Below, piece by piece: positions 29,353-50,166 of a stretch of DNA of 64,000 nt. This stretch comes from Bacteroidota bacterium (lineage in GTDB: Bacteria; Bacteroidota; Bacteroidia; Bacteroidales; CG2-30-32-10). The position numbers and the translations under genes are program-made. Numbering within the stretch: the stretch's first letter is position 1; each line of letters begins with the position of its first letter. The notes under the pieces are model-generated. The model worked only from the letters and a program-made list of their open reading frames with translations, was not told the DNA's origin and did no database searches. The stretch spans positions 17,063 to 81,062 of the forward strand of contig JACAAW010000001.1 in NCBI GenBank assembly GCA_013377115.1, given 5' to 3'.

Positions 29353-29359
29353 GCAAGAA

Positions 29360-37092: not shown

Positions 37093-38328
37093 TTATTTTC
37101 TATTTGCCAATTGTTGAATAAACGTTTCTATTGAAATAATGCTTTGCTCTTCGCTGTAGCACCTTGAATCATTCAAATCGCCATGAATTTCAATAAAAGG
37201 AACCTTGGTTTTTTCTAATAATCTATTTTGCAAACCGTATCTGTTGTTCGAGTTACGTGGACAAGTTTTGGATTCATGATAAATAATTCCGTCAATCGAA
37301 AATTCTGATAGAAGATTTGTCAAAACTTTTTCCTTTTCCTCGTCGGCTCTTACAATAAATAATTTGCAATAGGCCAATGCCGAAGATTCAAAAGGATCTG
37401 CTGGGTCTAAGGCATCAAAAATCCAGCTATTGCAATAGGTTGAAGCGACAATACAAGTGTCGAGACTTGCAAACATCTTAGCATTGCTGCTTAATTTGTA
37501 CCACAATGGCATTCCGTCCCAGTAAAGTCTTAGTTTTTCGTTTGGAACTGCACTAATTCCGTTCCTCACTCTTTCTTGAAGTTCTGCAAGTAAAATTTTA
37601 TAATAATCAACAGCATGCTGAGTTCCACGCATCACAACGATTGGTCCCATGTGAATCGCTGAATCAAAAAAGTTGATTGGTGATGGCTTATTTTTCGCTG
37701 TTTCTAAAACTTGACGCCAAAGCACGCAACCATCATGAGATAATTTTATCGTTTCTCTGAATTTGTCAATGTCGAATTTTTGCGTTGCAACCTTTTCCAA
37801 TTCAGGAATAATTTCTTTGAATTGTTCTGCAACAGATTTTATGATGCTTGGCGTGAGCTCGTTTATACAAAGTGGTGTATTGATCTCTAAAATAGGAACT
37901 TTAAAATACCTGGCGTAATATGAAAACCAATCTCCAACCTCGCGGCATTGATTGGTATTATAAACCAAAATATCTGGTGTTGGCACCGATTTGAATCCAC
38001 TTTTTTGAAGCGGTGTTTCGTTTTGCAAAAATGCACCAATATCGCTTGTTAAATACGAACAAATATCTGGTGAAAAACCATGAGCAACAGCTGTAGGAAT
38101 ATATTTATCAGCAGTTTTTGAAGCTCCCAACATGGCACCATGATTTTCAGGAAAATAAACTTCAAATCCCATGGAATAAAGCAATTCTGCCGGACCAACA
38201 CTTGTGCACCAGACAATTTTTTTATTCTTGGTTTCGTCAGCGGTTTTTAGTCGGTTAAAATAATCATCCATAGTAACACGGAGATTACCAACAGATTGAA
38301 GTTTTACTATTTCAGGTTTTTCTTGCAT
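37093..38328 (-). CDS. single-subunit member of the benzoyl-CoA reductase / 2-hydroxyacyl-CoA dehydratase family (double-cubane-cluster-protein-like)
   Basis: 411 aa. Family N-terminal signature IVWCTSVGPAELLYSMGFEVYFPENHGA and multiple conserved-looking Cys. Only one such subunit lies next to one activator gene. Confidence 0.7.
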   Translation of the reverse strand: MQEKPEIVKLQSVGNLRVTMDDYFNRLKTADETKNKKIVWCTSVGPAELLYSMGFEVYFPENHGAMLGASKTADKYIPTAVAHGFSPDICSYLTSDIGAFLQNETPLQKSGFKSVPTPDILVYNTNQCREVGDWFSYYARYFKVPILEINTPLCINELTPSIIKSVAEQFKEIIPELEKVATQKFDIDKFRETIKLSHDGCVLWRQVLETAKNKPSPINFFDSAIHMGPIVVMRGTQHAVDYYKILLAELQERVRNGISAVPNEKLRLYWDGMPLWYKLSSNAKMFASLDTCIVASTYCNSWIFDALDPADPFESSALAYCKLFIVRADEEKEKVLTNLLSEFSIDGIIYHESKTCPRNSNNRYGLQNRLLEKTKVPFIEIHGDLNDSRCYSEEQSIISIETFIQQLANRK

Positions 38329-38330
38329 CG

Positions 38331-39104
38331 TTATTTATTTTTCCAAACTGGTTTTCTTTTTTCTAAGAATGAATTAATCCCTTCGTTTGCATCTTCGGTT
38401 TCCATCAACTCTTTTACAAACATATCAGTAAAAGCAGGCAGATTTTTATTCATGAAATAATCGAAAGAAGCACGGGCAGCGCGAGTTGCATATTTTAATG
38501 ATACTGCACTTTTGGTACAAATATTACTTGTAATCCATTTTTCAGTTTCTGCTTCCAACATTTCTTTGTCTTCAAATACCTCATTGAGCAAACCAAGGTT
38601 TTTTGCTTCATCAGCAGAAATAATTTTCCCTGTAATTAAAAGTTCCTCAGCTTTTGCATTTCCAATTTTCAATGGCAACATAATTGAGGCTGGCGGAGCA
38701 AAAACGCCAAGAACAATTTCTGGTTGACCTAATTTTGCTGATTTATCTGCAAACATAAAATTACAAACCAATGCTAATTCGAGACCTCCACCCAAACACT
38801 GACCAGAAATTTTAGACATGGTTGGAATATGAAGTTCAACTATTGTTTGGAATATTTTATGAAAAGTAGTGAGCATTTTTAATGCATTTTCTTTGGTATG
38901 TTCTTCAACACTGGCTCCAAATGAAAAATGTTTTCCTGCTCCCTCAAAAGTAATGAGTTTTAAATCGTTTCTGGTTTTGTACGAAACTAAAAGTTCAATC
39001 AGTTCATTCATCATGATATCATCAATAACATTGCCCTTACCGTCATCGAGAACAATTCTTGCGACGGTGTTTTCGTATAAATATTCTACTTTTATTTTTT
39101 GCAT
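38331..39104 (-). CDS. dch: enoyl-CoA hydratase-fold protein; candidate cyclohexa-1,5-diene-1-carbonyl-CoA hydratase
   Basis: 257 aa crotonase (GAGKHFSFGASVEEH, CLGGGLELALVC) in the same operon as the had and oah homologues. Substrate is inferred from context only. Confidence 0.55.
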   Translation of the reverse strand: MQKIKVEYLYENTVARIVLDDGKGNVIDDIMMNELIELLVSYKTRNDLKLITFEGAGKHFSFGASVEEHTKENALKMLTTFHKIFQTIVELHIPTMSKISGQCLGGGLELALVCNFMFADKSAKLGQPEIVLGVFAPPASIMLPLKIGNAKAEELLITGKIISADEAKNLGLLNEVFEDKEMLEAETEKWITSNICTKSAVSLKYATRAARASFDYFMNKNLPAFTDMFVKELMETEDANEGINSFLEKRKPVWKNK

Positions 39105-39110: not shown

Positions 39111-39140
39111 AAAATGTTTGTTGTTCTTTGTTTTATGTTT
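39111..39140. repeat. left inverted repeat flanking the four-helix-bundle gene
   Basis: aaaatgtttgttgttctttgttttatgttt. Its reverse complement matches 39599-39634 (a 15-nt exact block aacataaaacaaaga plus a 7-nt block caaacat). Confidence 0.75.
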
Positions 39141-39549
39141 ATTGTTCTATATTGGTCGTTTTATGAAACTTTGTACCTTTATACTGAGAATTTTTCAGAT
39201 AAGTAATTAACCCTCCAGATTTTGAAATTATTTCTTCACAAATTTGAGAATTGATTTTAAATTCCTCTTCCGAAATATATTTCCAATCAATGGCTCTGTA
39301 TAATTGTGATCGACATTCATTGCATGAACCAAGTGCTATACTCAAAAAATTAACAAATTCTTTGTTTCCCCCTCTTCCATAGCCTTCAGCAATATTATCC
39401 ATAATTGAACCACTTGAAGATTTTATTTGGTCTCTAAATCTGAAATCTTTTTGAAAAGAACCCTTTTCTGTTATCTCAAAAATATTAACACACAATTTTC
39501 TTGCAAGTTGCCATATTTCTAAATCTTCAAATCTTTTAAAAGTCGCCAT
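39139..39549 (-). CDS. four-helix-bundle protein (23S rRNA intervening-sequence protein family)
   Basis: 136 aa. FEDLEIWQLARKL.., RFRDQIKSSSGSIMDNIAEGYGR, ALGSCNECRSQL are typical of the PF05635-type family. Confidence 0.8.
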   Translation of the reverse strand: MATFKRFEDLEIWQLARKLCVNIFEITEKGSFQKDFRFRDQIKSSSGSIMDNIAEGYGRGGNKEFVNFLSIALGSCNECRSQLYRAIDWKYISEEEFKINSQICEEIISKSGGLITYLKNSQYKGTKFHKTTNIEQ

Positions 39550-39639: not shown

Positions 39640-40722
39640 TTATTGAAATTGTGGCGAAATCGTTTTTATCAATTCATCATTCCACTCATGACCTTCAGCA
39701 AGCATTTGGCGTAATTTTACAAAATCAGCTTCTCTATTGTCTTTTGGACCATCATTGAATGCTCTGAAACCAGCTTTTCCTTCTGTCATCATGTTTAAAG
39801 CTAACCAATCTCTGTGGCTTTCTTTGTTCATATCCCAGAAAGCAAGTTTATGCATTCTAAGAGCATTAATGGTTTTGCTTAAACAATTTGGCATTGTATA
39901 AAGTAATTTTGTACAACATTTTTCAACGGCTTCGTCTAATGCTGTCAAATCAACAACACCAGATTTCATGATTTCTTTTCCTTTTGCTAAATCATCACCA
40001 GATTTTGATCTGCCATAAACAATTTGACCTCTATCGTCAACCCATTTATCAACAACAACCATTGGGTTTGCTATATATTCGCCATTAACTTTTAAAGCAG
40101 GAACTACTTCAGTTAGTAAACCTAAACGTAAAGCTTCATGAGCCGACCATGGATCGCAAACTGTGCAAGAATACATTGCATTTTCAATACCAACTAAAAG
40201 AGGTAAGAAATCTGTTGAACCACCAATTGGTGCACTTCCATGTTTAGGACCAGCTTGACCAAAACGGGCTAAATCCTGAGAAATAGAGAAATCGCAAGCC
40301 ATTCCAATTTCTTGTCCACCACCAATTCTCATTCCATTAACTCTGCAGATAACAGGTTTGTCATTCATTAAAATTGAAGAAACCATGTCATTAAACAAAC
40401 GCATGTATTGTTTGTATTCTTGAGGATTTCCAGCATAATATTCTGCGTATTCTTTAGTGTTTCCACCTGTACAGAATGCTTTATCTCCAACTCCAGTGAA
40501 AACAACAGCAACCACGCTTCTATCATTAGAAGATTCGCGCATTGCAAGAATTACTTCTTTAACTGCATCAGTTGTGTAAGAATTGTATTGACTTGGATTG
40601 TTTAGAATAATCCAGGCATTGAATAAACCTTTTATTGCATTTCCATGTTTATCTTTACAAGGGCGCAATTCATAAATAATGTTTTGGTATTCGTGCTTTA
40701 CTAAATTGTGACTTGATAACAT
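39640..40722 (-). CDS. oah: 6-oxocyclohex-1-ene-1-carbonyl-CoA hydrolase (ring-cleaving; Oah/BamA)
   Basis: 360 aa, an enlarged crotonase. It contains QYNSYTT and GGGQEIGMACDF about 90 aa apart. These are the peptides encoded by the bamA marker primers SP9/ASP1 as I recall them. Confidence 0.85.
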   Translation of the reverse strand: MLSSHNLVKHEYQNIIYELRPCKDKHGNAIKGLFNAWIILNNPSQYNSYTTDAVKEVILAMRESSNDRSVVAVVFTGVGDKAFCTGGNTKEYAEYYAGNPQEYKQYMRLFNDMVSSILMNDKPVICRVNGMRIGGGQEIGMACDFSISQDLARFGQAGPKHGSAPIGGSTDFLPLLVGIENAMYSCTVCDPWSAHEALRLGLLTEVVPALKVNGEYIANPMVVVDKWVDDRGQIVYGRSKSGDDLAKGKEIMKSGVVDLTALDEAVEKCCTKLLYTMPNCLSKTINALRMHKLAFWDMNKESHRDWLALNMMTEGKAGFRAFNDGPKDNREADFVKLRQMLAEGHEWNDELIKTISPQFQ

Positions 40723-40748: not shown

Positions 40749-41810
40749 TTATTGATTGTCGGGGACCAAAATAGACCTTTTTTTGTATTTATGTTCCAAT
40801 GTATTTTTGAATACTTCATTGATTTTCGACATTGGGAAAAGTTCAACAAAATCATTGATTTTCAATTTATCTGTCGCAATTAAATCAATTACTTCTGTAT
40901 ATAATTCAGGTTTGCAACCCCAGGTGCCAATTACTTTTGCATCGAAAGCCATTAAATTACTCAAGCGAACTTCTGGTTTATCCATGGTAAATCCAACAAT
41001 TGATAAAGTTGAAGTAAAGGTAATCAAATTGAATCCCAATTCTTGTCCGGCTTTTGTACCAGACATTTCGAAAATTTTCCAACCAAAGCGAGAAACGCCC
41101 AAGATTTTAACAATCTCTTTTACATTTTCTTTCACGGTTCTAATATCCATACCTTTAATATTGAGAGTGGCATCAATTCCGTTTGCTTTTGCGGTTGCTA
41201 ATTTTTCATTATCAATATCCAAAGCCAAAACTTTGGCACCCATAATTTTTGCGATTAATGCAGCATAAACGCCAACACCGCCAACACCAATAACAATTGC
41301 TAAATCGCCTACCTCCAATTCAGATTTTTTCAATACTTGATAAGGAGTTGAAATTGCATCAGCAACAACAGCTAATTTTTCCAAAGGGTATTTTTCTAAA
41401 ACGGCTTCAGGAACTGGACATAAAAATTTCGCAGGAACTTTGATATGAGAAGCAAAACCTCCATCAAAATCATTTCCTGGCATTAGTTGTTTTTGGCACA
41501 TATTGCTGCGTCCCTTTTTACAAAGTTCACATTCGCCACAAGGAAGAACAGCAGGAATAATCACATTTTTTCCAATCCACTCACTTGGTCCAGCTATGAC
41601 TTTTCCACTAATTTCATGACCAAGAGTTAAAGGCAATTCTTTTTTTGTTTTTACACCAAAATGCCAAAAGCTCAAATCTGTATGGCAAACGCCACAACCA
41701 GAAATTTTTATTAAAGCTTCATCTTGATTGAGTTCTGGTAAAGGACTTTCTACAAGTTGAAAATCAGCTTTTAGCTCCGTCATTTTCCAAGAATACATTT
41801 TTCCTTCCAT
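40749..41810 (-). CDS. had: Zn-dependent alcohol dehydrogenase; candidate 6-hydroxycyclohex-1-ene-1-carbonyl-CoA dehydrogenase
   Basis: 353 aa. Catalytic Zn ligands (GCGVCHTD, GHEISG), structural Zn site CGECELCKKGRSNMC, Rossmann motif GVGGVGV. Immediately upstream of oah. Confidence 0.7.
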   Translation of the reverse strand: MEGKMYSWKMTELKADFQLVESPLPELNQDEALIKISGCGVCHTDLSFWHFGVKTKKELPLTLGHEISGKVIAGPSEWIGKNVIIPAVLPCGECELCKKGRSNMCQKQLMPGNDFDGGFASHIKVPAKFLCPVPEAVLEKYPLEKLAVVADAISTPYQVLKKSELEVGDLAIVIGVGGVGVYAALIAKIMGAKVLALDIDNEKLATAKANGIDATLNIKGMDIRTVKENVKEIVKILGVSRFGWKIFEMSGTKAGQELGFNLITFTSTLSIVGFTMDKPEVRLSNLMAFDAKVIGTWGCKPELYTEVIDLIATDKLKINDFVELFPMSKINEVFKNTLEHKYKKRSILVPDNQ

Positions 41811-41830: not shown

Positions 41831-42799
41831 TTAAATATTTTCTCCGTCTTTGGATGTTCTATTTTTGTAGGTTATTGACCTTACTAAATTTGTAAACGTT
41901 AAATTTAATGGTGTTTTAATGTAATGTTTACGACCATATTCAACAATTTTTCCATTCATAAAATCAATTTCTGTCTCTTTTTTGTTAATTAAATCGACTG
42001 CTAATGAAGGCATGTGATTTCCGGCATTTTTCAAATAACGAATGCACAATTTAACAAAATTCTCAGGTAATTTTATTTCCTCTGCTTTTGCAACTTCAAC
42101 AGCTTCATAAATAATTTGTTCTACAATTTCTAAAGTATCTGGATGATCCATTGCTTCTTTCATGGTAAGATTGGAAATCGCACATAATGGACTTAAAGCC
42201 GCATTTAAAATTGTTTTTTCCCAAATTTTGTTAACGACTTCAAAAGAGCCAACTTTTTCGGTAATTAAACCAACGCTTGTTAATAATTCGGCTATTTTTT
42301 CAGCTATTTCAGGATGAGAATCATCAACAGAGGCAACATAGTTTGGTGGATTGAAAAAACTAACTGCTGTAACATTAGGAGCATGAAGATTTCCAGCATA
42401 GTTGACAACCATTCTCAACACTTTTGATTCTTCAAAATGTGTAATGTATTTTTTTCTAACTCCAATTCCATTTTGGGCAATCAATAAAAAAACATCTTTT
42501 TTATCACAAAGTTTTACTTGTTCGATAATACTATCAACATTATAATCTTTTACAGCGCTAATTAAAACATCAAAATCATGTTCCAGCAATTCTTGAATTG
42601 AGCTATAAACATGTTTAAAATAAGCTTGCTTTTCAATTTTATCAACCAATTCAATTCCTGAATTTCTAATTAAAGCAAGTTTGTTTTTATCAATGTCAGT
42701 AATAGCAACTTCACATCCAGCTTCTTTTAAATGAACTGCTAATGCTTGCCCAACAGGACCAAGACCAATAATTCCGAATCGAAATACTTTTTCTCCCAT
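41831..42799 (-). CDS. ketopantoate-reductase (ApbA/PanE) family NAD(P)-dependent oxidoreductase
   Basis: 322 aa. N-terminal GIIGLGPVG Rossmann fold and C-terminal PanE-type helical domain (KIWEKTILNAALSPL.., SLAVDL..KETEIDFMNG). Confidence 0.7.
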   Translation of the reverse strand: MGEKVFRFGIIGLGPVGQALAVHLKEAGCEVAITDIDKNKLALIRNSGIELVDKIEKQAYFKHVYSSIQELLEHDFDVLISAVKDYNVDSIIEQVKLCDKKDVFLLIAQNGIGVRKKYITHFEESKVLRMVVNYAGNLHAPNVTAVSFFNPPNYVASVDDSHPEIAEKIAELLTSVGLITEKVGSFEVVNKIWEKTILNAALSPLCAISNLTMKEAMDHPDTLEIVEQIIYEAVEVAKAEEIKLPENFVKLCIRYLKNAGNHMPSLAVDLINKKETEIDFMNGKIVEYGRKHYIKTPLNLTFTNLVRSITYKNRTSKDGENI

Positions 42800-42841: not shown

Positions 42842-44929
42842 TTACATAATAATACGAGCATCTACTGCACAAACCCTATTCTCATTTGCAAAAATGGGGT
42901 TTAAATCCAACTCTTTGATTTCTGGAAAATCATTCACCAAAGTGGAAATTCTTTGTAAAATCTCTGATACTTTTCCTTTATCAATTCCTTTTTTCCCTCT
43001 AAAATCATTCAATAATGCGGCCGATTTAATATTTTCGAGCATTTCATTTGCCTCAACATCAGTGGTTGGAGCAATTTTGAACACCACATCTTTGTATACC
43101 TCAACCATAACACCACCCATTCCGAACATAATTAAATGGCCTAATCCTTCTTCCTCCTTAACTCCGATAATTAATTCTCGGCTTTCAGGAAGAAATTCCT
43201 GAATGAAGAATTTTAAATCTGGTTGCTGAAGTTTGTTTTGCATATTTTGCACTACAGTTCTGACTTCCTCAGCGTTTTTAATATTTATTGCAACTCCACC
43301 CACATCACTTTTGTGAATGATTTTTTCCGAATCCGCTTTTATTACCAAAGGAAATCCAATTTTCTCGGCTTCAATAACAGCTTCATCAACAGTTTTTGCA
43401 ATACTCCATTTTGCTATTGGAATTTTGTAAGCCTCTAAAATTTCATAAACATCTTTGGCTGTTAAAACTTCTTTTCCTTGGGCTTTTACTGAATCGAAAA
43501 CGGCTTTAGCTTTGCCTTTATTGATATCTGTAAAAGTTTTTATTGAACCTTTTTTCCTCGATCTGATTTCATTGTATTTTGAAAGTGACGAAAGGGCTTT
43601 TGCAGCAGTTTCAGGGTAATCAAAACATGGAATTCCTCCATCAGCAAGAATTTTAGAAGTTTCACCCCAGTTTTGTTTATCCGTGATATAATTACAAACA
43701 ATTGGTTTTATTTGTTTTTTGCTTATTTCAGCAATTTCTTTAGCGACACTCACACAATCAACAAAAGGAGGAGTTACAAAAGTGAGATAAATCCCGTCAA
43801 TTTGCTCTTCATTCATCATCACTTCTATGGCGCTTTTAAAATGTGCAGCACCAGCAGTCGCCACAACATCCAAAGGATTGTTTATTGACGCTTGTTCCAA
43901 CATGGTTAGTTTTAATTCTGCTTTGGCTTTTTCCGAAATTGGAGGCATTGCCATACCACAAGAAACCAGTTCGTCGGTTGCAATAATAGCAGGACCACCA
44001 GTATTGGTAATCATTCCAACGTTGCTTCCATTTGGTATTGGTTGCGAAGAAAAAGCAATGGCAGCATGACAAATTTCCTCTAAATTAGAGAATGAAAGAA
44101 TTCCTGCTTTTTGAAATATCAGCTCCATTGTTACTCCACCAGCCAAACCACCAGTATGGGATTTGGAAGCCGCAGCACCTTTTTCGGTTCTACCAGCAGA
44201 AATGGCTAAAATTGGTTTTTTAGCAGCAACTTCCATCGCTACTTCCATGAATTCTTTTGTATTTGAAAGGCTTTCGAGATAAAGAATAATTACTTTGGTT
44301 CCTTCATCTTCGCCATAATATTTTAAAATTTCGGATATGGAAACATCAGAGCCATTGCCATTAGAAGAATAAAGCCTCAATCCAATTTCCATATCATGCA
44401 ATACTTGCATAATTAATGCCCCAACACCGCCACTTTGCGCAACAATAGAAATAGAACCTGGTTTGTAAAATGTAAATGTAAAATTGCAATAAGCATTGTA
44501 TTTTGGGTCGGAATTGATGGTACCTTGGCAGTTTGGACCAATAATTCTGATACCGTATTTTTTTGCGCGGGCTAAAAAATCATCTTCAAGAGCCTGACCT
44601 TCTGCCCCCATTTCTTTGAAACCAGCAGTATTGATAATAATAGCTTTTACTCCTTTTTTTCCGCAATTTTCAACCTCTTCTGGAACAAACGGTGGAGGTA
44701 TAACGATGTGAGCTAATTCGACTTCGCCAGGAACATCCATAATTGATGGATAAGCTTTTATTCCCCGAATCTCGTCAACCTTTGGGTTTATTGGATAAAT
44801 TGGCCCTGTAAAACCATAATGAACTAAGTTTTTGATGATGATATTTCCAATAGAAAGCTCTTTTACTGATGCACCAATTAACGCAATTGATTTGGGTTCG
44901 TAGAAATAATTCAAGTTATCTTTATTCAT
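42842..44929 (-). CDS. ADP-forming acyl-CoA synthetase (fused alpha-beta), first gene of the ring-processing operon
   Basis: 695 aa. CoA-binding N-domain (IALIGAS), phosphohistidine loop SKSHTGGLAG, C-terminal ATP-grasp domain. Paralogue of the gene at 13714-15771. Confidence 0.8.
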   Translation of the reverse strand: MNKDNLNYFYEPKSIALIGASVKELSIGNIIIKNLVHYGFTGPIYPINPKVDEIRGIKAYPSIMDVPGEVELAHIVIPPPFVPEEVENCGKKGVKAIIINTAGFKEMGAEGQALEDDFLARAKKYGIRIIGPNCQGTINSDPKYNAYCNFTFTFYKPGSISIVAQSGGVGALIMQVLHDMEIGLRLYSSNGNGSDVSISEILKYYGEDEGTKVIILYLESLSNTKEFMEVAMEVAAKKPILAISAGRTEKGAAASKSHTGGLAGGVTMELIFQKAGILSFSNLEEICHAAIAFSSQPIPNGSNVGMITNTGGPAIIATDELVSCGMAMPPISEKAKAELKLTMLEQASINNPLDVVATAGAAHFKSAIEVMMNEEQIDGIYLTFVTPPFVDCVSVAKEIAEISKKQIKPIVCNYITDKQNWGETSKILADGGIPCFDYPETAAKALSSLSKYNEIRSRKKGSIKTFTDINKGKAKAVFDSVKAQGKEVLTAKDVYEILEAYKIPIAKWSIAKTVDEAVIEAEKIGFPLVIKADSEKIIHKSDVGGVAINIKNAEEVRTVVQNMQNKLQQPDLKFFIQEFLPESRELIIGVKEEEGLGHLIMFGMGGVMVEVYKDVVFKIAPTTDVEANEMLENIKSAALLNDFRGKKGIDKGKVSEILQRISTLVNDFPEIKELDLNPIFANENRVCAVDARIIM

Positions 44930-45034
44930 AAACTATAAAAATTCAGGTGAAAAGCAGGATGTTAGATTTGAAGTTTTTAGGAGAATCAAAATACTTAACG
45001 AGTCCAAATTTAAATCTTTCTTAAAGTTATTTTA

Positions 45035-45213
45035 TTAAAATCAAATATAGTAATCTTTATTGATTATGTCAAATTTTAAAAAAACCATAACAAATAAGGA
45101 TTCTTTATATCGCAAAGATAAAAATAAATCGACAAAAAACAAATATGGTTTGAAAAAACAAACGAATTCGCCTTTTTTCCTATTGCTTTAGTAGGAAATT
45201 AACTATTTTTAAC
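45035..45213 (-). promoter_or_regulatory. promoter/regulatory region, copy X of a duplicated ~180-bp block
   Basis: On the minus strand: TTTG (45070-45073), N20, TATATTTG (45042-45049), matching the Bacteroidota -33/-7 consensus, about 113 nt upstream of the ATG at 44929. A 43-nt block identical to copy Y lies further upstream (tctttatatcgcaaagataaaaataaatcgacaaaaaacaaat), as does the palindrome TTCCTA-N9-TAGGAA (45177-45197). Confidence 0.7.
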
Positions 45214-45444
45214 ATTTTATTAATATTTAACGCAAATCAAAATAAAAACGTTAGATATTTAATCCTTTAATTCAAAACGAAATATTTTATCTTTCGAGGT
45301 AATTCCTCTTCACAAATACACTGATTTCATTAATGAAATAACGGCAAGTACTTTCTAAATTATTATCAAATAATTCCGGTGGTATTGATTATTTTTAGGC
45401 GGTTGAAAAAGTGGTATTTTGAGAAATATTGATACAAATTCTAC

Positions 45445-46272
45445 CTATTTTTTCAACTTCTTATTTTTCTTCGCTTCGGGTAAAAAATTGTTTTCAGAAA
45501 TTACTTTTTCACCTGTTTTTAATTCCAATGCTTTTCTAGCATCACCTGCTATTTTACCGCCTTGTTTGGCAACCACTTTATTTTGGACAAAACCTTTTGG
45601 GTTTTTAGTTTTTACAATAGCTGTTGTTGATGCTTCTCCGAGCATTGAGAAAATTAATTCCAAATCGGTCATGTGGTCACGCAGGTTTTGGCTTTTCAAA
45701 CCTTTTACTTTCTTGTATTGAGAAGGTGTTAAACCAAATGTTGCTTTAGAAATTTCTGCAGTTAAAATAGAATATTCAATTTGTTCTTTTACGCCTCTAT
45801 TTTTCCATTCCTCAGTTAATTCTTCACGAATAGCAATGCTACGCATTCGTTTTTCAATCCAATCGTCAGGATAGCCTTTGGCTTTATACAATTCTCTGGT
45901 TCGTTGAGTTGCTAATTCCGGATTTTCAATTTCGTCTAATCTGTCTGAACCAACTTGTGCCAACCATTGCTTAAATGGTTCTGCTTTGGGTGATGGAATT
46001 GATTGAATGATTCTCAAAAGACCTTTAGCGTTTGCAGCCTGTACTTTACGTCTTTTACCATCAGCTGCCTGCATTTCAACTAGGGTACAAATTGTACCCC
46101 AGTTGCTTTTTAGTTGTTCATCACGACTTAAAATTCTTTTTATGTATTGCTTAACATCCGCACTATCGGTGAGGACTTCTACAACATCTTGCACTGAGAA
46201 ATACCATTTGTTCTCTGTTTCGTTCCAAACAGACCGTATTTGCTTACTTTCAAAAAGTTTTATATTGCTCAT
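45445..46272 (-). CDS. Bro-N domain / DinD-like (DNA-damage-inducible protein D family) protein
   Basis: About 275 aa from the ATG at 46272 (MSNIKLFESKQIRSVWNETENKWYFSVQDVVEVLT is Bro-N-like). The C-terminal region ..NLRDHMTDLELIFSMLGEASTT.. resembles DinD. Confidence 0.65.
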   Translation of the reverse strand: MSNIKLFESKQIRSVWNETENKWYFSVQDVVEVLTDSADVKQYIKRILSRDEQLKSNWGTICTLVEMQAADGKRRKVQAANAKGLLRIIQSIPSPKAEPFKQWLAQVGSDRLDEIENPELATQRTRELYKAKGYPDDWIEKRMRSIAIREELTEEWKNRGVKEQIEYSILTAEISKATFGLTPSQYKKVKGLKSQNLRDHMTDLELIFSMLGEASTTAIVKTKNPKGFVQNKVVAKQGGKIAGDARKALELKTGEKVISENNFLPEAKKNKKLKK

Positions 46273-46544
46273 TAATTTGTTTTTTCTGGAACTCAAAAAT
46301 ACTTAAAAGTGCGTACTTTAAAAAATGATTTTGAAAATTTGGAGGGTTGAGTTATCAACAATTATTTATTACAGTAGACAATTTACAACAAATATTCTAA
46401 GGAAAATCTATCAGGAAATACAAAAATTATTCCGCAATCACCCAATCACCATTTTTGATGAGAATATTGTTAGGATTGAAATCCCAGTTCATGTTACTTA
46501 ATAATTAAGAAAATTCTAAATAATTACAATTTCAATAATTGGTA

Positions 46545-47369
46545 TTATTTTTTATTCAATTTATGGTATCTAAATCCACCAAATATTGCAGCTCCAATTG
46601 CTCCAGAATAAATTGCATCGGGATGTGTCGAAAAAGTTAAACCTAATTTTGCTTCTGTTCCAAGTTCTTCAATTGCCTGAACCATACCTTTATTCATTGC
46701 CATTCCACCCATTAATGCAACTTTTGAATCGGCTTTTAATGAAGAAAGCAATTTTATTACTTTACTTGCTATGGATAAATGAATTCCTTTAATAATATCT
46801 GGAGTTGAAATCCCTCTAGAAACCATGTTAATCACATCCGTTTCTGCAAGTACTGAGCAAATACCTGAAGGCAATTCAGGTGACATTGATTTTAGTGATG
46901 CATCGCCAACTTCTTCTATTGCTAATCCTAAATATCTTGAAATGTTTTCAACAAATTGTCCCGAACCAGAAGCACATTGGCCTGTCATTTTATAATCCAA
47001 TACTCGGCCTTCATCACTAATGTTTATTGCTCTTACGAAAAGAGCTCCAAGATCCAAAACTGTTTTTGAACCAGGATTAAGAAATAGCCCACCTTTTGCA
47101 TGAGTAGTCATGCTATAAAAATGACCTTTCTTTCTTTTTAGAAGTTCTCCTTCTCCAGTTGAAGCCACATAAGCAATATCCTCGTATTTCAAATTGTTTT
47201 TTAAAAGTATTGCATCTAATAAAAGATCCGAAATACTTTCGGGATTCCTTTTTCTTATTTTCTCGTTTACCTTGTCAATAATAATTGGATTATCAGAATA
47301 CTCCATTAAAACCAGTTTAATTGTACTGCTTCCAACGTCAATTCCGAGGGTATAAACTTTATTATCCAT
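46545..47369 (-). CDS. bcrD: benzoyl-CoA reductase ATPase subunit, small (BcrD/BadG-like)
   Basis: 274 aa. LGIDVGSSTIK, cluster Cys contexts TGQCASGSGQF and SGICSVLAETD. Fourth gene of a C-B-A-D series. Confidence 0.75.
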   Translation of the reverse strand: MDNKVYTLGIDVGSSTIKLVLMEYSDNPIIIDKVNEKIRKRNPESISDLLLDAILLKNNLKYEDIAYVASTGEGELLKRKKGHFYSMTTHAKGGLFLNPGSKTVLDLGALFVRAINISDEGRVLDYKMTGQCASGSGQFVENISRYLGLAIEEVGDASLKSMSPELPSGICSVLAETDVINMVSRGISTPDIIKGIHLSIASKVIKLLSSLKADSKVALMGGMAMNKGMVQAIEELGTEAKLGLTFSTHPDAIYSGAIGAAIFGGFRYHKLNKK

Positions 47370-47401
47370 ATAGACTTATTTCTTTATTTAATTTTTACTG
47401 A

Positions 47402-48784
47402 TTATTCAACATGACTTCTTCTAGCAAACATTGCTCCGCCCAGAGCTCCCATAAATATTGAGTCAGGATGAATATTAATAATAATATCATCACCATAATT
47501 TTTATGTACCAACTCAGAAACGTATTTCAATACTGCTTGGTTACGAGCAACACCACCTGTAAATGTAAATTCATTTCTAACACCACCTGAACGAGCTAAT
47601 AAAGACATCGCTCTCATCACAATTGCGCGATGTAAACCGGCTAAAATATCAGAACGTTTTTGACCTACATTTAAAAGCTCACGAATTTCTGCAGCAGCAA
47701 AAACAGTACACGTTGAACAAATATTAACTTCACTTTTTGCCTCCAAAGCTAATGGTCCAAGTTCATTTAATGAAATACTAAACTCATCAGCAATGTAACC
47801 AAGATATCTTCCACATCCAGCAGCACATCTATCATTCATATGGAAACTAGTTACCAAACCATGACTATCAACCTGAATCGCTTTTGTATCCTGCCCACCA
47901 ATGTCTAAAACTGTTTTTGTATTAGGGAAAACAGCATGAGCTCCAAAAGCATGGCATAAAATCTCAGATTTGATACATTTCTCTGGGAATGGCAATAATG
48001 CTCTTCCATATCCTGTTCCTACCATATTGGCTATGTGAATATCCATATTGGCAACAAACATGATGTGTTCCTTTATTGAATCATGAACATTTTTAAAGTT
48101 GCCCTTCAATAAATTCATTTCAGTATCAAATTCTATACTTTGGTTTTCAGCAATAGTCTCTTCAAGATTCTGATATTTATCGTGAAGAATTTCTAATGCC
48201 TGAAACACCAACTCTTTGAAATTAAACTCCGTGAGCTCATTTTCTACGGATGTGATACTTTTATCATAAACCAGCATCAAAGGTTCAAATAGTGCTTTAT
48301 CTAATTTCCCAATTTCTTTGTTAAAATGCTCACTTACAATATCACGAAAAAATTGATTTTTAGAACCTAAATTTCCATACAAAAAATCATCATGAATAAT
48401 TGGTCCAATAGTTTTTACAATATTCTCAACATGCTTTGCAACAATATCTCTCAATTCGTTTTCGAAGGTAGTTGCAATGGTATCTTTGAATTGAACATTT
48501 AGGCGATCCAATCGTTTTTTAAACTGTAAATATTGAAATACGGATTCAACATCCTCGATATATTTTTTATATTCTGGTTTGCTCTGAATCTCATCTTCCA
48601 ATTTTAATTTGAGCAAAGAAAATCTAGCATTATAAATGGCCTCAAGTCTGGCAATTTCAGTTGCCACCGTATAATTTGCCCTTGTATTTGTAATTCCTCT
48701 TCCAATTATCTCATCTTTTTCATTAACAATTACTGCTTTAGATGTTGTTGAGCCGAGGTCTATTCCTAAAAAGTATTTCTTCAT
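47402..48784 (-). CDS. bcrA: benzoyl-CoA reductase ATPase subunit, large (BcrA/BadF-like)
   Basis: 460 aa. LGIDLGSTTSKA, then a ~200-aa insertion, then DIGGQDTKA, NDRCAAGCGRYL and CSTCTVFAAAE. The insertion-bearing large ATPase is characteristic of class I BCR alpha subunits. Confidence 0.75.
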   Translation of the reverse strand: MKKYFLGIDLGSTTSKAVIVNEKDEIIGRGITNTRANYTVATEIARLEAIYNARFSLLKLKLEDEIQSKPEYKKYIEDVESVFQYLQFKKRLDRLNVQFKDTIATTFENELRDIVAKHVENIVKTIGPIIHDDFLYGNLGSKNQFFRDIVSEHFNKEIGKLDKALFEPLMLVYDKSITSVENELTEFNFKELVFQALEILHDKYQNLEETIAENQSIEFDTEMNLLKGNFKNVHDSIKEHIMFVANMDIHIANMVGTGYGRALLPFPEKCIKSEILCHAFGAHAVFPNTKTVLDIGGQDTKAIQVDSHGLVTSFHMNDRCAAGCGRYLGYIADEFSISLNELGPLALEAKSEVNICSTCTVFAAAEIRELLNVGQKRSDILAGLHRAIVMRAMSLLARSGGVRNEFTFTGGVARNQAVLKYVSELVHKNYGDDIIINIHPDSIFMGALGGAMFARRSHVE

Positions 48785-48817
48785 TGATATCTGTTATTTC
48801 TAAATTTTGTAAAATTT

Positions 48818-50089
48818 TTAATACATCTTTCTTTGATCTAACATTTGGAAAAAAGACTCAAGTCTGTTTTTAATGTTGGAATAAGAAAAATATCTCGGAT
48901 CTACTAAATCAGATTCAATAAATCCGACAGGAATTTCCAGTTGTCGTTCTAATTGTTGCATAATCATTAATTGTCCGGCAGAAAAAGAATTACAACTTTT
49001 TATTGAATTCACTAAAAATCCATCGGCTTTATAATCTGTAATACATTTTGACAAAAGCTCCACTCTTTGTTCTAAATTTAGGTTGGTATAGCAATTCATA
49101 CAATATTCTGCAAGGCTTTCGAGTGGTTTCTCAGGATTAACTCTAAATCCCATATCATAAACACCGCCAACTTTGGTATAGGAAGAAGCAACGATGACGG
49201 CTCCCATATCATAGAATAATTTCCAAAATTCTCTGAAATGAGTCCAATTTGGAGGACCTTCAACTACCAATCTAAATCGTTCTTTTTCCATTACACCTTC
49301 AGGGGTGATTGGGCCCAAACCAAGATTAACTCTTTCTAAAATTTCATTATAAAGTTCATGATAATAATTTACTGCTTCATCAGAACCACGAAAACCATTA
49401 TTAATTGGCCCGATATAGTAAACGCCAGCAAAATAGGCATCAATAGGAGATGGAACATTTTTGGTGGTATCAAAAATCTTCATAATATAATCTTCCACCT
49501 TGCTAGAATTTCGTAAGCAGGCCTTTAATTTTTCTTCATCATATTTATTTCCAGAAACTTTTTCCATTTTAGGAATAACCTCTTCCTTCAATTGCTTCAC
49601 CATATAAGCAGTCATTTCTGGAGTAACTTTATGATTTTCTTGATAAGGTGTGTGCAATAAGGCAACAGGAACATCTGGATAAAGACGTTTTAATGTTTCG
49701 AACCATTTCATGAAAGTGAAACAGCCAGTATAACTTAAAAGAAAAAGATCGGGTTCAGGAATTTTTTCACCATTTGGACCAATGTTTCCATTAATCATCA
49801 TTCCAACATCACATTTAACATAGGTACAAACATCTTCAGAATGCCCTATTTTTTCTGCATCCCTAATAAAATCGGCAGATTTTTTTCTCATTCCAGATTG
49901 CAATGCATTTATTTCTGGATAAACAGGCAACATGCCGAATGACAATATTAATTCTGAAATATTCCCCGGAACAAAAGTATAAACAACTTTTTTTCCAGTT
50001 TCTTTTGCAGTACTCAAATCCTTAAAAAGACGAGAAATCATCTCTTTTTGAATAATCATACTTTTTTCTTTTGCAATATCTTTTGACAT
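48818..50089 (-). CDS. bcrB: benzoyl-CoA reductase core subunit (BcrB/BadE-like; 2-hydroxyacyl-CoA dehydratase fold)
   Basis: 423 aa. Family signature VVYTFVPGNISELILSFGMLPVYPE. Its size fits the ~48-kDa BCR beta subunit. Confidence 0.7.
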   Translation of the reverse strand: MSKDIAKEKSMIIQKEMISRLFKDLSTAKETGKKVVYTFVPGNISELILSFGMLPVYPEINALQSGMRKKSADFIRDAEKIGHSEDVCTYVKCDVGMMINGNIGPNGEKIPEPDLFLLSYTGCFTFMKWFETLKRLYPDVPVALLHTPYQENHKVTPEMTAYMVKQLKEEVIPKMEKVSGNKYDEEKLKACLRNSSKVEDYIMKIFDTTKNVPSPIDAYFAGVYYIGPINNGFRGSDEAVNYYHELYNEILERVNLGLGPITPEGVMEKERFRLVVEGPPNWTHFREFWKLFYDMGAVIVASSYTKVGGVYDMGFRVNPEKPLESLAEYCMNCYTNLNLEQRVELLSKCITDYKADGFLVNSIKSCNSFSAGQLMIMQQLERQLEIPVGFIESDLVDPRYFSYSNIKNRLESFFQMLDQRKMY

Positions 50090-50166
50090 ATTTTAAGTAA
50101 AATTAATAGTTAAAAAAACGAGTATTTTTGCAGTATAAATTCAAATATGAAATCTACTAAAATACA

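What the first reader, a model, noticed from the sequence alone, without database searches (positions are those of the whole stretch)
42842..44929. ADP-forming acyl-CoA synthetase in the position normally held by benzoate-CoA ligase
The first gene of the ring-processing operon is a ~700-aa fused NDP-forming acyl-CoA synthetase with a CoA-binding domain, phosphohistidine loop SKSHTGG and an ATP-grasp domain. It is not an AMP-forming adenylate ligase, and no AMP-forming aryl-CoA ligase is visible anywhere in the window. Archaeal members of this family (for example the Pyrococcus ACS II type) accept aryl acids. If this enzyme activates benzoate or hydroxybenzoate, activation would cost one ATP equivalent instead of two. 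That would partly offset the 2 ATP spent by class I BCR. Alternatively it runs in reverse and conserves ATP from acetyl-CoA or another acyl-CoA product. A paralogue at 13714-15771 sits next to tryptophanase and is a better candidate for the ordinary acetate-forming role.
Basis: inference. Interest (0 to 1): 0.6.

Follow-up and report, generated by a model that had tools for sequence, protein, structure and literature searches.

The report
ADP-forming CoA ligase inside benzoyl-CoA operons
A gene annotated as an acetate-CoA ligase belongs to a distinct enzyme group that sits inside the anaerobic aromatic-ring-breakdown operons of many Bacteroidota relatives, where it probably attaches coenzyme A for one ATP instead of two, more likely to an amino-acid-derived 2-hydroxy acid than to benzoate.

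Summary
ORF 42842-44929 (-) encodes a 695-aa fused NDP-forming acyl-CoA synthetase. Both catalytic histidines are present (H258 in SKSHTGG, and H539). No AMP-forming ligase or CoA-transferase occurs in the window.

New evidence:
- The enzyme belongs to a clade of at least 240 database protein clusters from Bacteroidota, Ignavibacteria and relatives.
- In 14 of 14 loci with readable upstream DNA, the gene lies directly behind benzoyl-CoA reductase genes. These are Thauera-type, Bzd-like or class II.
- The clade has an invariant acyl pocket (Q135/G168/A357/P388), unlike those of the acetate and 4-hydroxybutyrate enzymes.
- Its constant partners are a ketopantoate-reductase-family oxidoreductase, a single HadB-like dehydratase subunit and an activase. 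They are not the ring-cleavage enzymes.
- Elsewhere the oxidoreductase is fused to the activase, to the dehydratase, to a crotonase or to an AMP-forming ligase.
- HisC-type aminotransferases join the module in two lineages.

Best reading (0.42): the enzyme is the ATP-to-ADP CoA ligase of a non-canonical 2-hydroxyacyl-CoA dehydratase route. That route would run arylpyruvate, aryl-lactate, aryl-lactyl-CoA, cinnamoyl-CoA, benzoyl-CoA.

The ATP-conserving reverse role is not excluded. Nothing here is biochemically tested.

The parts
42842..44929 (-). ADP-forming (NDP-forming) acyl-CoA synthetase, 695 aa, fused domains 1-2-5-4-3. Catalytic H258 and H539. Clade-specific acyl pocket Q135/F150/G168/A357/P388.
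   Evidence: Pfam; NCBIfam, with all equivalog cut-offs missed; PDB 8WZU at 464 bits; pocket conservation.
41831..42799 (-). Ketopantoate-reductase (PanE/ApbA) family oxidoreductase, 322 aa. Proposed 2-oxoacid (arylpyruvate) reductase.
   Evidence: Pfam ApbA + ApbA_C; TIGR00745 at 166.8, above the 141 cut-off; catalytic K/N/S/D/E motifs retained. It is next to ACS, or one gene away, in all 16 loci. Homologues are fused to activase, HGD-D, ECH or an AMP-ligase.
40749..41810 (-). 6-hydroxycyclohex-1-ene-1-carbonyl-CoA dehydrogenase (Had).
   Evidence: TIGR03201 at 451 bits, above the 338.65 cut-off.
39640..40722 (-). 6-oxocyclohex-1-ene-1-carbonyl-CoA hydrolase (Oah/BamA).
   Evidence: TIGR03200 at 593 bits, above the 464 cut-off.
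39139..39549 (-). 23S rRNA-intervening-sequence-family protein, apparently a passenger gene in the operon.
   Evidence: PF05635, 2.3e-34. Absent from L003, L004 and L055; present at other positions in L053 and L115.
38331..39104 (-). Crotonase-family hydratase, best match cyclohexa-1,5-dienecarbonyl-CoA hydratase (Dch).
   Evidence: TIGR03189 at 212 bits, below the 292.5 cut-off.
37093..38328 (-). Single HGD-D family subunit, HadB-like (alpha-type 2-hydroxyacyl-CoA dehydratase). No beta-subunit gene is present.
   Evidence: PF06050; HadB NF052455 at 220 bits; PDB 3O3M_A at 178 bits over the full length, with three conserved Cys aligned. Orthologues are 74-98% identical on the same contigs as ACS orthologues.
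36296..37042 (-). ATP-dependent activase (BcrAD/HgdC family).
   Evidence: TIGR00241 at 167.5, above the 125.4 cut-off. Fused to the PanE-like protein in L009, L117, L118 and L119.
35065..36261 (-). Divergent thiolase.
   Evidence: Pfam Thiolase_N and Thiolase_C; TIGR01930 at 141 bits, below cut-off.
32953..35058 (-). 701-aa divergent bifunctional 3-hydroxyacyl-CoA dehydrogenase / enoyl-CoA hydratase.
   Evidence: C-terminal ECH domain; 23% identity over 567 aa to the L119 HCDH/ECH protein.
46545..51330 (-). Class I (Thauera-type) benzoyl-CoA reductase: bcrC 50167-51330, bcrB 48818-50089, bcrA 47402-48784, bcrD 46545-47369.
   Evidence: TIGR02263 and TIGR02260 score above cut-off. TIGR02259 (416 against 578) and TIGR02261 (306.5 against 312.85) score below.
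44930..46544 (-). 1.6-kb insertion between bcrD and the ACS gene. It holds a Bro-N domain gene (45445-46296) and an AT-rich 515-nt leader with promoter-like TTGACA-17-TATATT / TAtaTTTG at 45072-45044.
   Evidence: Pfam Bro-N; sequence; promoter scan, not above chance overall; alignment to L003 and L055, where bcrD and ACS abut.
26557..30301 (+). 4-hydroxybenzoyl-CoA-reductase-like molybdenum hydroxylase. A gamma-alpha fusion of 931 aa (26557-29352) plus an FAD subunit (29360-30301).
   Evidence: TIGR03194 at 816 bits (below the 994 cut-off), TIGR03193 and TIGR03195. It recurs next to the module in L007, L117, L118, L119 and the P0049 locus.
13714..15807 (-). Paralogous ADP-forming acyl-CoA synthetase (ACS2), 32% identical, lacking the clade pocket signature, beside tryptophanase (12309-13685).

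Best explanation
The gene encodes a functional ADP-forming acyl-CoA synthetase of a distinct clade found in Bacteroidota, Ignavibacteria and their relatives. Members of this clade are built into benzoyl-CoA reductase operons. The enzyme most likely runs in the ATP-consuming direction (acid + CoA + ATP -> acyl-CoA + ADP + Pi). In that role it would be the CoA ligase of a four-part, non-canonical 2-hydroxyacyl-CoA dehydratase module. Proposed sequence: (1) a ketopantoate-reductase-family enzyme reduces a 2-oxo acid to the 2-hydroxy acid. The 2-oxo acid is most likely phenylpyruvate or 4-hydroxyphenylpyruvate made by transamination of Phe or Tyr. (2) The ACS thioesterifies the 2-hydroxy acid, taking the place of the CoA-transferase used by clostridia. 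(3) A single HadB-like [4Fe-4S] subunit, started by its ATP-dependent activase, removes water to give cinnamoyl- or 4-coumaroyl-CoA. (4) The hydratase/dehydrogenase and the thiolase encoded downstream cut off acetyl-CoA, leaving benzoyl-CoA or 4-hydroxybenzoyl-CoA. The latter would be dehydroxylated by the Mo enzyme at 26557-30301. (5) BcrCBAD, Dch, Had and Oah then open the ring. What is shown: the domain architecture, the catalytic residues, the conserved gene order, the fusions and the pocket conservation. What is inferred: the direction of the reaction, the identity of the acid and every chemical step.
For: 1. The enzyme is intact and its closest characterised relative is an activating enzyme, Nmar_0206. 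2. 16 distinct orthologous loci at 57-100% identity were examined. All 14 with informative upstream DNA carry BCR genes directly upstream. These are Thauera-type class I, Bzd-like, or class II BamB-I. In L003 and L055 the ACS start codon lies within about 10 nt of the bcrD stop. 3. The genes that stay with ACS when the order changes are PanE-like, HgdB-like and activase. The orders seen are ACS-HgdB-PanE-activase (L051), ACS-HgdB-PanE-aminotransferase-PanE (L007/8) and ACS-HgdB-x-PanE::activase-thiolase (L009, L117-119). 4. Fusions link the PanE-like protein to the other steps. It is fused to the activase (both halves above NCBIfam cut-offs). It is fused to the orthologous HGD-D subunit (P0379, 62% identity). 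It is fused to a crotonase (P0378) and to an AMP-forming ligase (P0457). 5. HisC-family aminotransferases, above the TIGR01141 cut-off, lie inside or beside the module in two separate lineages. 6. The HgdB-like protein aligns over its full length with HadB, with three conserved Cys aligned. The PanE-like protein keeps the KPR catalytic motifs. 7. Pocket positions Q135/F150/G168/G170/A357/T358/P388/F389 are invariant in 240 sequences that are only 57% identical overall. They differ from ckcACD (F/F/A/G/A), Nmar_0206 (L/F/A/G/S), ACS2 and the outgroups not linked to BCR. 8. No other ligase or CoA-transferase is present in 64 kb plus flanks or in the related loci. 9. This model assigns a role to every gene of the operon except the passenger genes (IVP here) and, in subclade B, the stand-alone ANL C-terminal-domain ORF. 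A benzoate-only model leaves the PanE-like, HgdB-like and activase genes unexplained.
Against: There is no biochemical evidence of any kind. Classical 2-hydroxyacyl-CoA dehydratases are alpha-beta heterodimers, and only one HGD-D gene is present here. The reductase belongs to the KPR family rather than the D-2-hydroxyacid-dehydrogenase family, and it could act on another ketone or on a CoA ester. Aminotransferases were seen in only 2 of 16 loci, and none lies in this window. Homologous PanE fusions occur in Marinimicrobia, Myxococcota and Asgard archaea. Their link to BCR was not examined, so the module's substrate need not be aromatic. In L115 no HGD-D gene lies within 10 kb downstream. In the P0049 locus none lies within 10 kb, but an orthologue is probably further along the same contig, judged from a matching longest-contig length. 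The ACD reaction is near equilibrium, so the direction cannot be read from sequence. Pocket residues do not identify a substrate.
Confidence: 0.42

Rival explanations
1. The enzyme is an ADP-forming benzoate (and/or 4-hydroxybenzoate) CoA ligase that replaces the AMP-forming BclA/BadA/BzdA/BamY type. Activation then costs one ATP equivalent instead of two.
For: It is the only CoA-activating enzyme in the cluster. It sits directly behind bcrD or bamI in 14 of 14 informative loci. Its pocket is not acetate-like, with small residues at G168, G170 and A357. Its nearest characterised relative is an activating enzyme. A 4-hydroxybenzoyl-CoA-reductase-like enzyme co-occurs and needs a source of 4-hydroxybenzoyl-CoA. 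Archaeal ACS II enzymes accept aryl acids (own knowledge: Mai & Adams 1996; Musfeldt & Schoenheit 2002).
Against: It leaves the always-linked PanE-like, HadB-like and activase genes without a role. The ligase that ACS appears to have replaced was associated with PanE, not with BCR. The vestigial ANL C-terminal domain lies inside the module, and an AMP-ligase::PanE fusion exists. That ligase is of the generic fatty-acyl type, not the benzoate-ligase type. No direct evidence exists for any aromatic acid as substrate.
Confidence: 0.22
2. The enzyme runs in the ATP-conserving direction. It would convert acetyl-CoA, or another pathway thioester such as glutaryl-, pimeloyl- or 3-hydroxypimeloyl-CoA, to the free acid plus ATP. 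This would recover energy spent by BCR.
For: This is the usual physiological role of bacterial and archaeal ACDs. The pathway yields three acetyl-CoA per ring. The reaction is near equilibrium. NCBIfam acetate-CoA ligase models are the second and third best hits. Pimeloyl-CoA synthetase PauA is a member of this superfamily (own knowledge).
Against: All acetate-CoA ligase equivalog cut-offs are missed (451 against 567; 483 against 1200). The pocket differs from the acetate enzyme at 4 of 5 positions and is invariant across the clade. A separate paralogue is available for acetate formation. Strict linkage to a reductase-dehydratase module, and replacement of an AMP-forming and therefore activating ligase, argue for the activating direction.
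Confidence: 0.13
3. The four-gene module is a hydroxyglutarate-type pathway, or one acting on another non-aromatic 2-hydroxy acid. It would run 2-oxoglutarate -> 2-hydroxyglutarate -> 2-hydroxyglutaryl-CoA (made by the ACS) -> glutaconyl-CoA. It would be clustered with the benzoyl-CoA genes only because both share the glutaconyl/crotonyl-CoA lower pathway.
For: The same module logic applies as in the best explanation. Glutaryl-CoA-dehydrogenase-like and ETF genes lie in the window. The polar pocket residues Q135 and T358 could bind a distal carboxylate. Module homologues occur in phyla whose link to BCR was not examined.
Against: There is no glutaconyl-CoA decarboxylase gene in the window or in the flanks examined. 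Spending ATP on activation would make glutamate fermentation energetically poor. It gives no reason for 14 of 14 linkage directly behind BCR, or for interleaving with the 4-hydroxybenzoyl-CoA-reductase-like genes in L007.
Confidence: 0.12

Closest known systems
Nitrosopumilus maritimus 4-hydroxybutyrate-CoA ligase (ADP-forming), Nmar_0206, PDB 8WZU
   Same: Best hit among solved and characterised proteins (464 bits, aligned over residues 11-688). It has the same single-chain domain order 1-2-5-4-3, the same two catalytic histidines, and works physiologically in the activating, ATP-saving direction.
   Different: The NF045493 equivalog cut-off is missed (550 against 1300). Four of the five acyl-pocket positions differ (L131Q, A164G, G355A, S385P). 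It is archaeal and belongs to a CO2-fixation cycle, not a bacterial catabolic operon.
Archaeal ADP-forming acetyl-CoA synthetases: ACD I (e.g. Ca. Korarchaeum, PDB 4XYL/4YAK) and the aryl-accepting ACS II of Pyrococcus and Archaeoglobus
   Same: Same superfamily and same phospho-histidine mechanism. ACS II sets a precedent for aryl-substituted acids as substrates (own knowledge).
   Different: Those enzymes have separate alpha and beta subunits and act in the ATP-forming direction in peptide fermentation. The pocket of ckcACD is F/F/A/G/A, against Q/F/G/A/P here. TIGR02717 and NF045494 cut-offs are missed.
Clostridial 2-hydroxyacyl-CoA dehydratase pathways (FldH/FldA/FldBC/FldI for phenyllactate; LdhA/HadA/HadBC/HadI; HgdH/GctAB/HgdAB/HgdC)
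   Same: Same four functions in one gene cluster: a 2-oxoacid reductase, a CoA-activating enzyme, an HGD-D-type [4Fe-4S] dehydratase and an ATP-dependent activator. The HgdB-like protein aligns over its full length with HadB.
   Different: Activation is by an ADP-forming ligase, not a CoA-transferase. The reductase is KPR family, not D-2-hydroxyacid dehydrogenase family. Only one dehydratase subunit gene is present. The reductase is often fused to the activase. The product is proposed to be oxidised to benzoyl-CoA rather than reduced to arylpropionate.
AMP-forming benzoate-CoA ligases of the benzoyl-CoA pathway (BclA, BadA, BzdA, BamY; ANL superfamily)
   Same: Same position and presumed role in the operon, namely supplying the CoA thioester that BCR needs.
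   Different: No homology and no PF00501 domain. ATP goes to ADP + Pi instead of AMP + PPi. The substrate is probably not benzoate.

Membership tests
NDP-forming acyl-CoA synthetase (ACD) superfamily | Five subdomains: CoA-binding, two flavodoxin-like ligase-CoA domains and an ATP-grasp. | tested here: met
   PF13380, PF13607, PF19045 and PF13549 are all above their gathering scores. Full-length alignment to 8WZU.
NDP-forming acyl-CoA synthetase (ACD) superfamily | Phospho-histidine on the swinging loop, plus a second histidine in the ATP-grasp domain. | tested here: met
   H258 (SKSHTGG) and H539 align with Nmar_0206 H256 and H535. Both are invariant in 240 relatives.
NDP-forming acyl-CoA synthetase (ACD) superfamily | Catalysis yields ADP (or GDP) + Pi rather than AMP + PPi. 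| not testable with these tools
   Needs an enzyme assay.
Acetate-CoA ligase (ADP-forming), TIGR02717 / NF045494 | Score above the curated equivalog cut-off. | tested here: not met
   451.5 against 567.15, and 483 against 1200.
Acetate-CoA ligase (ADP-forming), TIGR02717 / NF045494 | Acetyl-binding pocket as in ckcACD (F, F, A, G, A at the five contact positions). | tested here: not met
   The query has Q135, F150, G168, A357 and P388.
4-hydroxybutyrate-CoA ligase (ADP-forming), NF045493 | Score above the curated equivalog cut-off. | tested here: not met
   550 against 1300. The pocket differs at 4 of 5 positions.
AMP-forming aryl-CoA ligase (ANL superfamily; benzoate-CoA ligase) | PF00501 AMP-binding domain with the PS00455 motif. 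| tested here: not met
   Absent from this protein and from the whole window.
Classical 2-hydroxyacyl-CoA dehydratase system (Had/Fld/Hgd type) | ATP-dependent activator of the BcrAD/HgdC family. | tested here: met
   TIGR00241 at 167.5, above the 125.4 cut-off, for 36296-37042.
Classical 2-hydroxyacyl-CoA dehydratase system (Had/Fld/Hgd type) | Heterodimeric dehydratase encoded by two HGD-D genes (alpha and beta). | tested here: not met
   Only one HGD-D gene accompanies the activase, in the window and in the relatives that carry one.
Classical 2-hydroxyacyl-CoA dehydratase system (Had/Fld/Hgd type) | CoA-transferase for substrate activation. | tested here: not met
   No CoA-transferase family appears in the window or in the neighbours listed. 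The ACS occupies that role by position.
Classical 2-hydroxyacyl-CoA dehydratase system (Had/Fld/Hgd type) | Dehydration of a (R)-2-hydroxyacyl-CoA to the 2-enoyl-CoA. | not testable with these tools
   Needs anaerobic reconstitution.
Benzoyl-CoA degradation gene cluster | BCR together with dienoyl-CoA hydratase, Had and Oah. | tested here: met
   BcrB, BcrC, Had and Oah score above their equivalog cut-offs. BcrA, BcrD and Dch are best hits but below cut-off.

The most novel reading that the evidence does not exclude
Many anaerobic members of the Bacteroidota, Ignavibacteria and related phyla possess an undescribed route from phenylalanine and tyrosine to benzoyl-CoA. The steps would be arylpyruvate -> aryl-lactate -> aryl-lactyl-CoA -> cinnamoyl/4-coumaroyl-CoA -> (4-hydroxy)benzoyl-CoA. 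The route would be built from a ketopantoate-reductase-family reductase, an ADP-forming CoA ligase and a single-subunit radical dehydratase whose activase is often fused to the reductase. It would deliver benzoyl-CoA at a net cost of zero ATP, because one ATP is spent and one acetyl-CoA is gained. It would also bypass the phenylacetyl-CoA alpha-oxidation used in denitrifying bacteria. That could help explain how these organisms can afford ATP-dependent class I BCR.
Probability: 0.33. Interest if true: 0.85.

Novelty: new variant of a known kind. Interest (0 to 1): 0.7.

Why it matters
The ATP budget decides who can degrade aromatic compounds without oxygen. The textbook pathway spends two ATP equivalents on an AMP-forming ligase, and two more on class I BCR. 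An ADP-forming ligase built into BCR operons across a large, ecologically abundant group would change that accounting. The host MAGs are labelled as coming from settings such as lake water, groundwater and digester sludge.

If the module reading is right, it also reveals a new entry route for aromatic amino acids and aryl-lactates into the benzoyl-CoA pathway. That route would use a minimal, single-subunit form of the radical 2-hydroxyacyl-CoA dehydratases.

There is a practical consequence too. Several hundred database protein clusters carry source names that hide this linkage:
- 'acetate--CoA ligase family protein' or 'acetyltransferase';
- '2-dehydropantoate 2-reductase';
- '2-hydroxyglutaryl-CoA dehydratase'.

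Metabolic reconstructions of MAGs that rely on these names would miss both the activation step and the module.

Tried and rejected
- The metagenome scan with the ACS returned almost only distant (30-39% identity) homologues not linked to BCR, plus two short orthologous contigs. It added no context.
- Exact-sequence look-ups of the window's own proteins found only short Logan contigs, not the 88.7-kb NCBI contig. The rest of this genome could therefore not be searched for AMP-forming ligases.
- Seven literature searches found no description of an ADP-forming synthetase, a PanE-like gene or a HadB-like module in BCR clusters. One 2026 paper only speculates about a phenyllactyl-CoA route in a benzene degrader.
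- Rfam found no riboswitch or other known RNA in the window or in the ACS leader.
- The sigma-70 promoter scan was not above chance (18 found, 15.5 expected), so the promoter call upstream of ACS is weak.
- No convincing terminal repeats flank the Bro-N insertion.
- Rejected: the enzyme as the housekeeping acetate enzyme of Bacteroidota. All sampled orthologues are BCR-linked and the pocket differs.
- Rejected: a PatZ-like protein acetyltransferase, which is JGI's name for many members. There is no GNAT domain.
- Rejected: the PanE-like protein as electron donor to the activase. It has no flavin or Fe-S domain.
- Judged unlikely: the module running backwards from glutaconyl-CoA to 2-oxoglutarate. 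NAD(P)-linked oxidation of a 2-hydroxy acid is strongly unfavourable.
- I could not compare the HgdB-like protein with FldB, HgdA or LcdA, because no reference sequences were available in the tools.


Full report
1. THE OBSERVATION.
The ORF at 42842..44929 (minus strand, ATG start, 695 aa) is a fused NDP-forming acyl-CoA synthetase.
- Pfam finds CoA_binding_2, Succ_CoA_lig, Ligase_CoA_2 and ATP-grasp_5, with E-values down to 3.9e-70.
- The best solved relative is the ADP-forming 4-hydroxybutyrate-CoA ligase Nmar_0206 of N. maritimus (8WZU, 464 bits). It aligns over residues 11-688 with the same domain order.
- The loop AAASKSHTGGLAGG carries H258, which matches Nmar H256. H539 matches the ATP-grasp histidine H535 described in PMC11494057. 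Both are invariant in all aligned relatives.
- Every curated NCBIfam equivalog cut-off is missed: 4-hydroxybutyrate ligase 550 against 1300, Archaeoglobus acetate ligase 483 against 1200, and TIGR02717 451 against 567.
- So the protein is a member of the superfamily but of no named specificity group.

2. THE SURROUNDINGS IN THE WINDOW.
On the same strand, with gaps of 2-127 nt, the following genes come after the ACS:
- a PanE/ApbA-family oxidoreductase;
- Had and Oah, both above their equivalog cut-offs;
- a 23S-rRNA-IVP-family passenger gene;
- a Dch-like hydratase;
- one HGD-D subunit (HadB-like) and an activase (TIGR00241, above cut-off);
- a thiolase;
- a divergent 701-aa HCDH/ECH protein.

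BcrCBAD lies upstream. It is separated from the ACS by a 1.6-kb insertion carrying a Bro-N gene and an AT-rich leader. The plus strand at 25339-32288 encodes a glutaryl-CoA-dehydrogenase-like protein, a 4-hydroxybenzoyl-CoA-reductase-like Mo enzyme (a gamma-alpha fusion plus an FAD subunit), an SDR and a thiolase.

No AMP-binding (PF00501) or CoA-transferase domain is present in any scanned ORF, and every ORF of 400 aa or more was scanned. No PS00455 motif exists in the window. About 8 kb of extra flank from the same organism is also negative. The paralogue at 13714-15807 is 32% identical and does lie beside a true tryptophanase.

3. RELATED SEQUENCES.
The protein comes from a Bacteroidetes MAG. 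It has hundreds of relatives at 64-100% identity in Bacteroidota, Ignavibacteria and Chlorobi MAGs. A sister subclade of 705-712 aa is about 57% identical. I examined 16 distinct orthologous loci.

In all 14 loci with informative upstream DNA the gene follows benzoyl-CoA reductase genes:
- Thauera-type BcrCBAD: the window, L003/4, L053, L055, L009, L117, L118 and L119.
- A Bzd-like set with ferredoxin: L007/8.
- Class II BamB-I: L005, L051, L115, L116 and the P0049 locus.

In L003 and L055 the ACS start codon lies within about 10 nt of the bcrD stop. The Bro-N segment in the window is therefore a lineage-specific insertion. Homologues at 30-39% identity from Planctomycetota, Desulfobacterota and Actinomycetes show no such context.

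4. THE ACYL POCKET.
PMC11494057 names five positions within 5 A of the acyl group. In Nmar_0206 these are L131, F146, A164, G355' and S385'. The corresponding residues are:
- this enzyme: Q135, F150, G168, A357, P388;
- the acetate enzyme of Ca. Korarchaeum: F, F, A, G, A;
- PH0766: V, F, A, A, T.

In 240 sequences of the two subclades, which are 57% identical overall, eight positions are almost completely invariant: Q135, F150, G168, G170, A357, T358, P388 and F389. A357 and P388 each differ in one sequence. The outgroups not linked to BCR have L/A/G-D/A, and ACS2 also lacks the signature. This argues for one specific, non-acetate substrate. It does not say which one.

5. WHO THE REAL PARTNERS ARE.
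When gene order varies, Had, Oah and Dch move away from the ACS. Three genes stay with it: the PanE-like gene, the HgdB-like gene and the activase.
- L051: ACS-HgdB-PanE-activase.
- L007/8: ACS-HgdB-PanE-aminotransferase-PanE2-...-HcrB-HcrCA-activase.
- Subclade B: BcrCBAD-ACS-HgdB-(155-aa ORF)-PanE::activase-thiolase-Had-Oah-Dch-HCDH/ECH.

Further points on the partners:
- The PanE::activase fusion is present in four independent loci, with both halves above their NCBIfam cut-offs.
- HgdB-like orthologues are 74-98% identical.
- The HgdB-like protein aligns end to end with HadB (3O3M_A), with three conserved Cys aligned. These probably correspond to the [4Fe-4S] ligands (own knowledge).
- The PanE-like protein keeps the KPR catalytic Lys/Asn/Ser/Asp/Glu motifs.

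6. ROSETTA-STONE FUSIONS.
I ran an exhaustive phmmer search of the PanE-like protein against 1.84 billion representatives. Among its closest clusters it found the following fusions:
- PanE fused to the activase: P0362, P0366 and P0371.
- PanE fused to an HGD-D subunit that is 62% identical to the window's (P0379).
- PanE fused to a crotonase (P0378).
- PanE fused to an AMP-forming acyl-CoA ligase (P0457, PF00501).

These proteins come from Marinimicrobia, Myxococcota, Asgard archaea and unnamed metagenomes.

The 155-181-aa ORFs inside the subclade-B modules are homologous to the C-terminal part of the ligase half of P0457 (E 1e-15 to 4e-20). They are stand-alone or vestigial AMP-ligase C-terminal domains. 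The ligase half of P0457 is of the generic fatty-acyl type, not a benzoate-CoA ligase type.

Together these fusions tie the reductase to a ligase, a dehydratase, its activase and a hydratase. They also suggest that the ADP-forming ACS has taken over the job of an AMP-forming ligase within that module.

7. AMINOTRANSFERASES.
HisC-family aminotransferases (TIGR01141, above cut-off) lie inside the module in L007/8 and directly upstream of bcrC in L118. HisC-type enzymes commonly serve as aromatic aminotransferases (own knowledge). None is present in this window.

8. MECHANISM PROPOSED (inference).
1. An aminotransferase converts Phe or Tyr to the arylpyruvate.
2. The PanE-like enzyme reduces it to the aryl-lactate.
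3. The ACS forms aryl-lactyl-CoA at the cost of ATP -> ADP + Pi.
4. The HadB-like subunit, primed by the activase, eliminates water to give cinnamoyl- or 4-coumaroyl-CoA.
5. HCDH/ECH and the thiolase release acetyl-CoA and (4-hydroxy)benzoyl-CoA.
6. The Mo enzyme removes the para-hydroxyl group.
7. BCR, Dch, Had and Oah open the ring.

Net cost up to benzoyl-CoA would be one ATP spent and one acetyl-CoA gained.

This assigns a role to every conserved gene of the module and operon, apart from passenger genes such as IVP and the 155-181-aa ANL C-terminal-domain ORFs of subclade B. It also explains the lack of any other ligase. It parallels the clostridial Fld/Had/Hgd pathways with three differences:
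- an ADP-forming ligase replaces the CoA-transferase;
- a KPR-family reductase replaces the D-2-hydroxyacid dehydrogenase;
- one dehydratase subunit gene is present instead of two.

I give this model 0.42.

9. RIVALS.
It is consistent with the position and the pocket, but leaves three always-linked genes unexplained. It also conflicts with the PanE association of the displaced AMP-ligase.
(b) ATP conservation from acetyl-CoA or dicarboxylyl-CoAs (0.13). This is thermodynamically possible. The pocket, the failed cut-offs, the available paralogue and the module logic all count against it.
(c) A hydroxyglutarate-type or other non-aromatic 2-hydroxy acid module (0.12). The fusions in phyla whose link to BCR was not examined keep this possibility open. 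Against it, no glutaconyl-CoA decarboxylase gene is present, and the 14 of 14 placement behind BCR would be unexplained.
The remaining probability, about 0.1, covers substrates or roles not considered here.

10. NOVELTY AND LIMITS.
Seven full-text searches found no description of this arrangement. I rate it a new variant of known kinds, namely the benzoyl-CoA pathway periphery and the 2-hydroxyacyl-CoA dehydratase pathway.

All functional statements are inferences from sequence, synteny and fusions. Whole genomes could not be searched. Context look-ups were capped, so the neighbourhoods of the non-FCB fusions are unknown.

Noticed in passing
Window 44930-46544; compare L003 9900-10060 and L055 9900-10060: A 1.6-kb insertion carrying a Bro-N domain gene (45445-46296) splits bcrD from the ACS gene, which abut in relatives. 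A 23-aa remnant at 46430-46498 resembles the N-terminus of the 187-aa ORF that precedes ACS in L051.
   Followed up: partly
L003/4, L053, L055, L009, L117-119 (class I); L005, L051, L115, L116 (class II); L007/8 (Bzd-like): The same conserved ACS-PanE(-HgdB) block sits behind three different kinds of benzoyl-CoA reductase. This implies that the reductase type has been swapped at one locus. L055 carries BcrCBAD and, divergently, BamB-E-like genes side by side.
   Followed up: partly
L009 13874-15721; L117 13868-15721; L118 13534-15372; L119 13910-15763; P0362, P0366, P0371: Conserved in-frame fusions of a ketopantoate-reductase-family domain to a BcrAD/HgdC-type activase. The P0366 cluster is widespread in Marinimicrobia (98 contigs). 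Source databases name these proteins '2-dehydropantoate 2-reductase'.
   Followed up: partly
L009 13360-13824; L117 13364-13831; L119 13377-13862; L118 9378-9923: Conserved 155-181-aa ORFs, 35-47% identical to each other. They are homologous only to the C-terminal part of an AMP-forming acyl-CoA ligase (P0457 residues 365-582). They may be a stand-alone domain or a relic, and their function is unknown. No counterpart exists in the window.
   Followed up: partly
Window 26557-29352 and 29360-30301: A 4-hydroxybenzoyl-CoA-reductase-like Mo enzyme whose gamma (2Fe-2S) and alpha subunits are fused into one 931-aa protein. All three subunit models score below their equivalog cut-offs. In L118 a SufS-like desulfurase and a HisC-type aminotransferase are interleaved with its subunit genes.
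   Followed up: partly
Window 39139-39549; L053 2771-3115; L115 879-1160: 23S rRNA-intervening-sequence-family protein genes are inserted at different places in these aromatic operons. They behave like passenger genes.
   Followed up: no
Window 53344-53919; L002 94-531: A 191-aa ORF inside the upstream part of the operon has the look of a REP-associated or IS200-like tyrosine transposase (YHVFNRGN...NHFHFLI), though Pfam gave no hit. L002 has an IS200-like 145-aa ORF upstream of its ACS. These operons seem prone to small mobile insertions.
   Followed up: no
L115 17659-22079: A second ADP-forming synthetase (711 aa, 33% identical, also with Q at the position 135 equivalent but A at 168) lies next to 2-oxoacid:ferredoxin oxidoreductase genes. 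This is the classical arylacetyl-CoA/ATP-forming arrangement, and it occurs in the same locus as the BCR-linked enzyme.
   Followed up: no
L051 16654-22082: Directly after the ACS-HgdB-PanE-activase module come caprolactamase/acetophenone-carboxylase-like hydantoinase A and B subunits, a TrpB-like (TrpB2) PLP enzyme and a RidA-family protein.
   Followed up: no
Window 22052-25097: An acyl-CoA dehydrogenase whose best match is clostridial acryloyl-CoA reductase AcrC (433 bits, below cut-off), with EtfAB. It could be an electron-bifurcating Bcd/Etf-type complex supplying reduced ferredoxin to class I BCR.
   Followed up: no
Window 58192-60576: A TonB-dependent receptor with a CarboxypepD_reg domain (Bacteroidota SusC-like) is transcribed divergently from the start of the aromatic operon. 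It is a candidate importer for the pathway's substrate.
   Followed up: no
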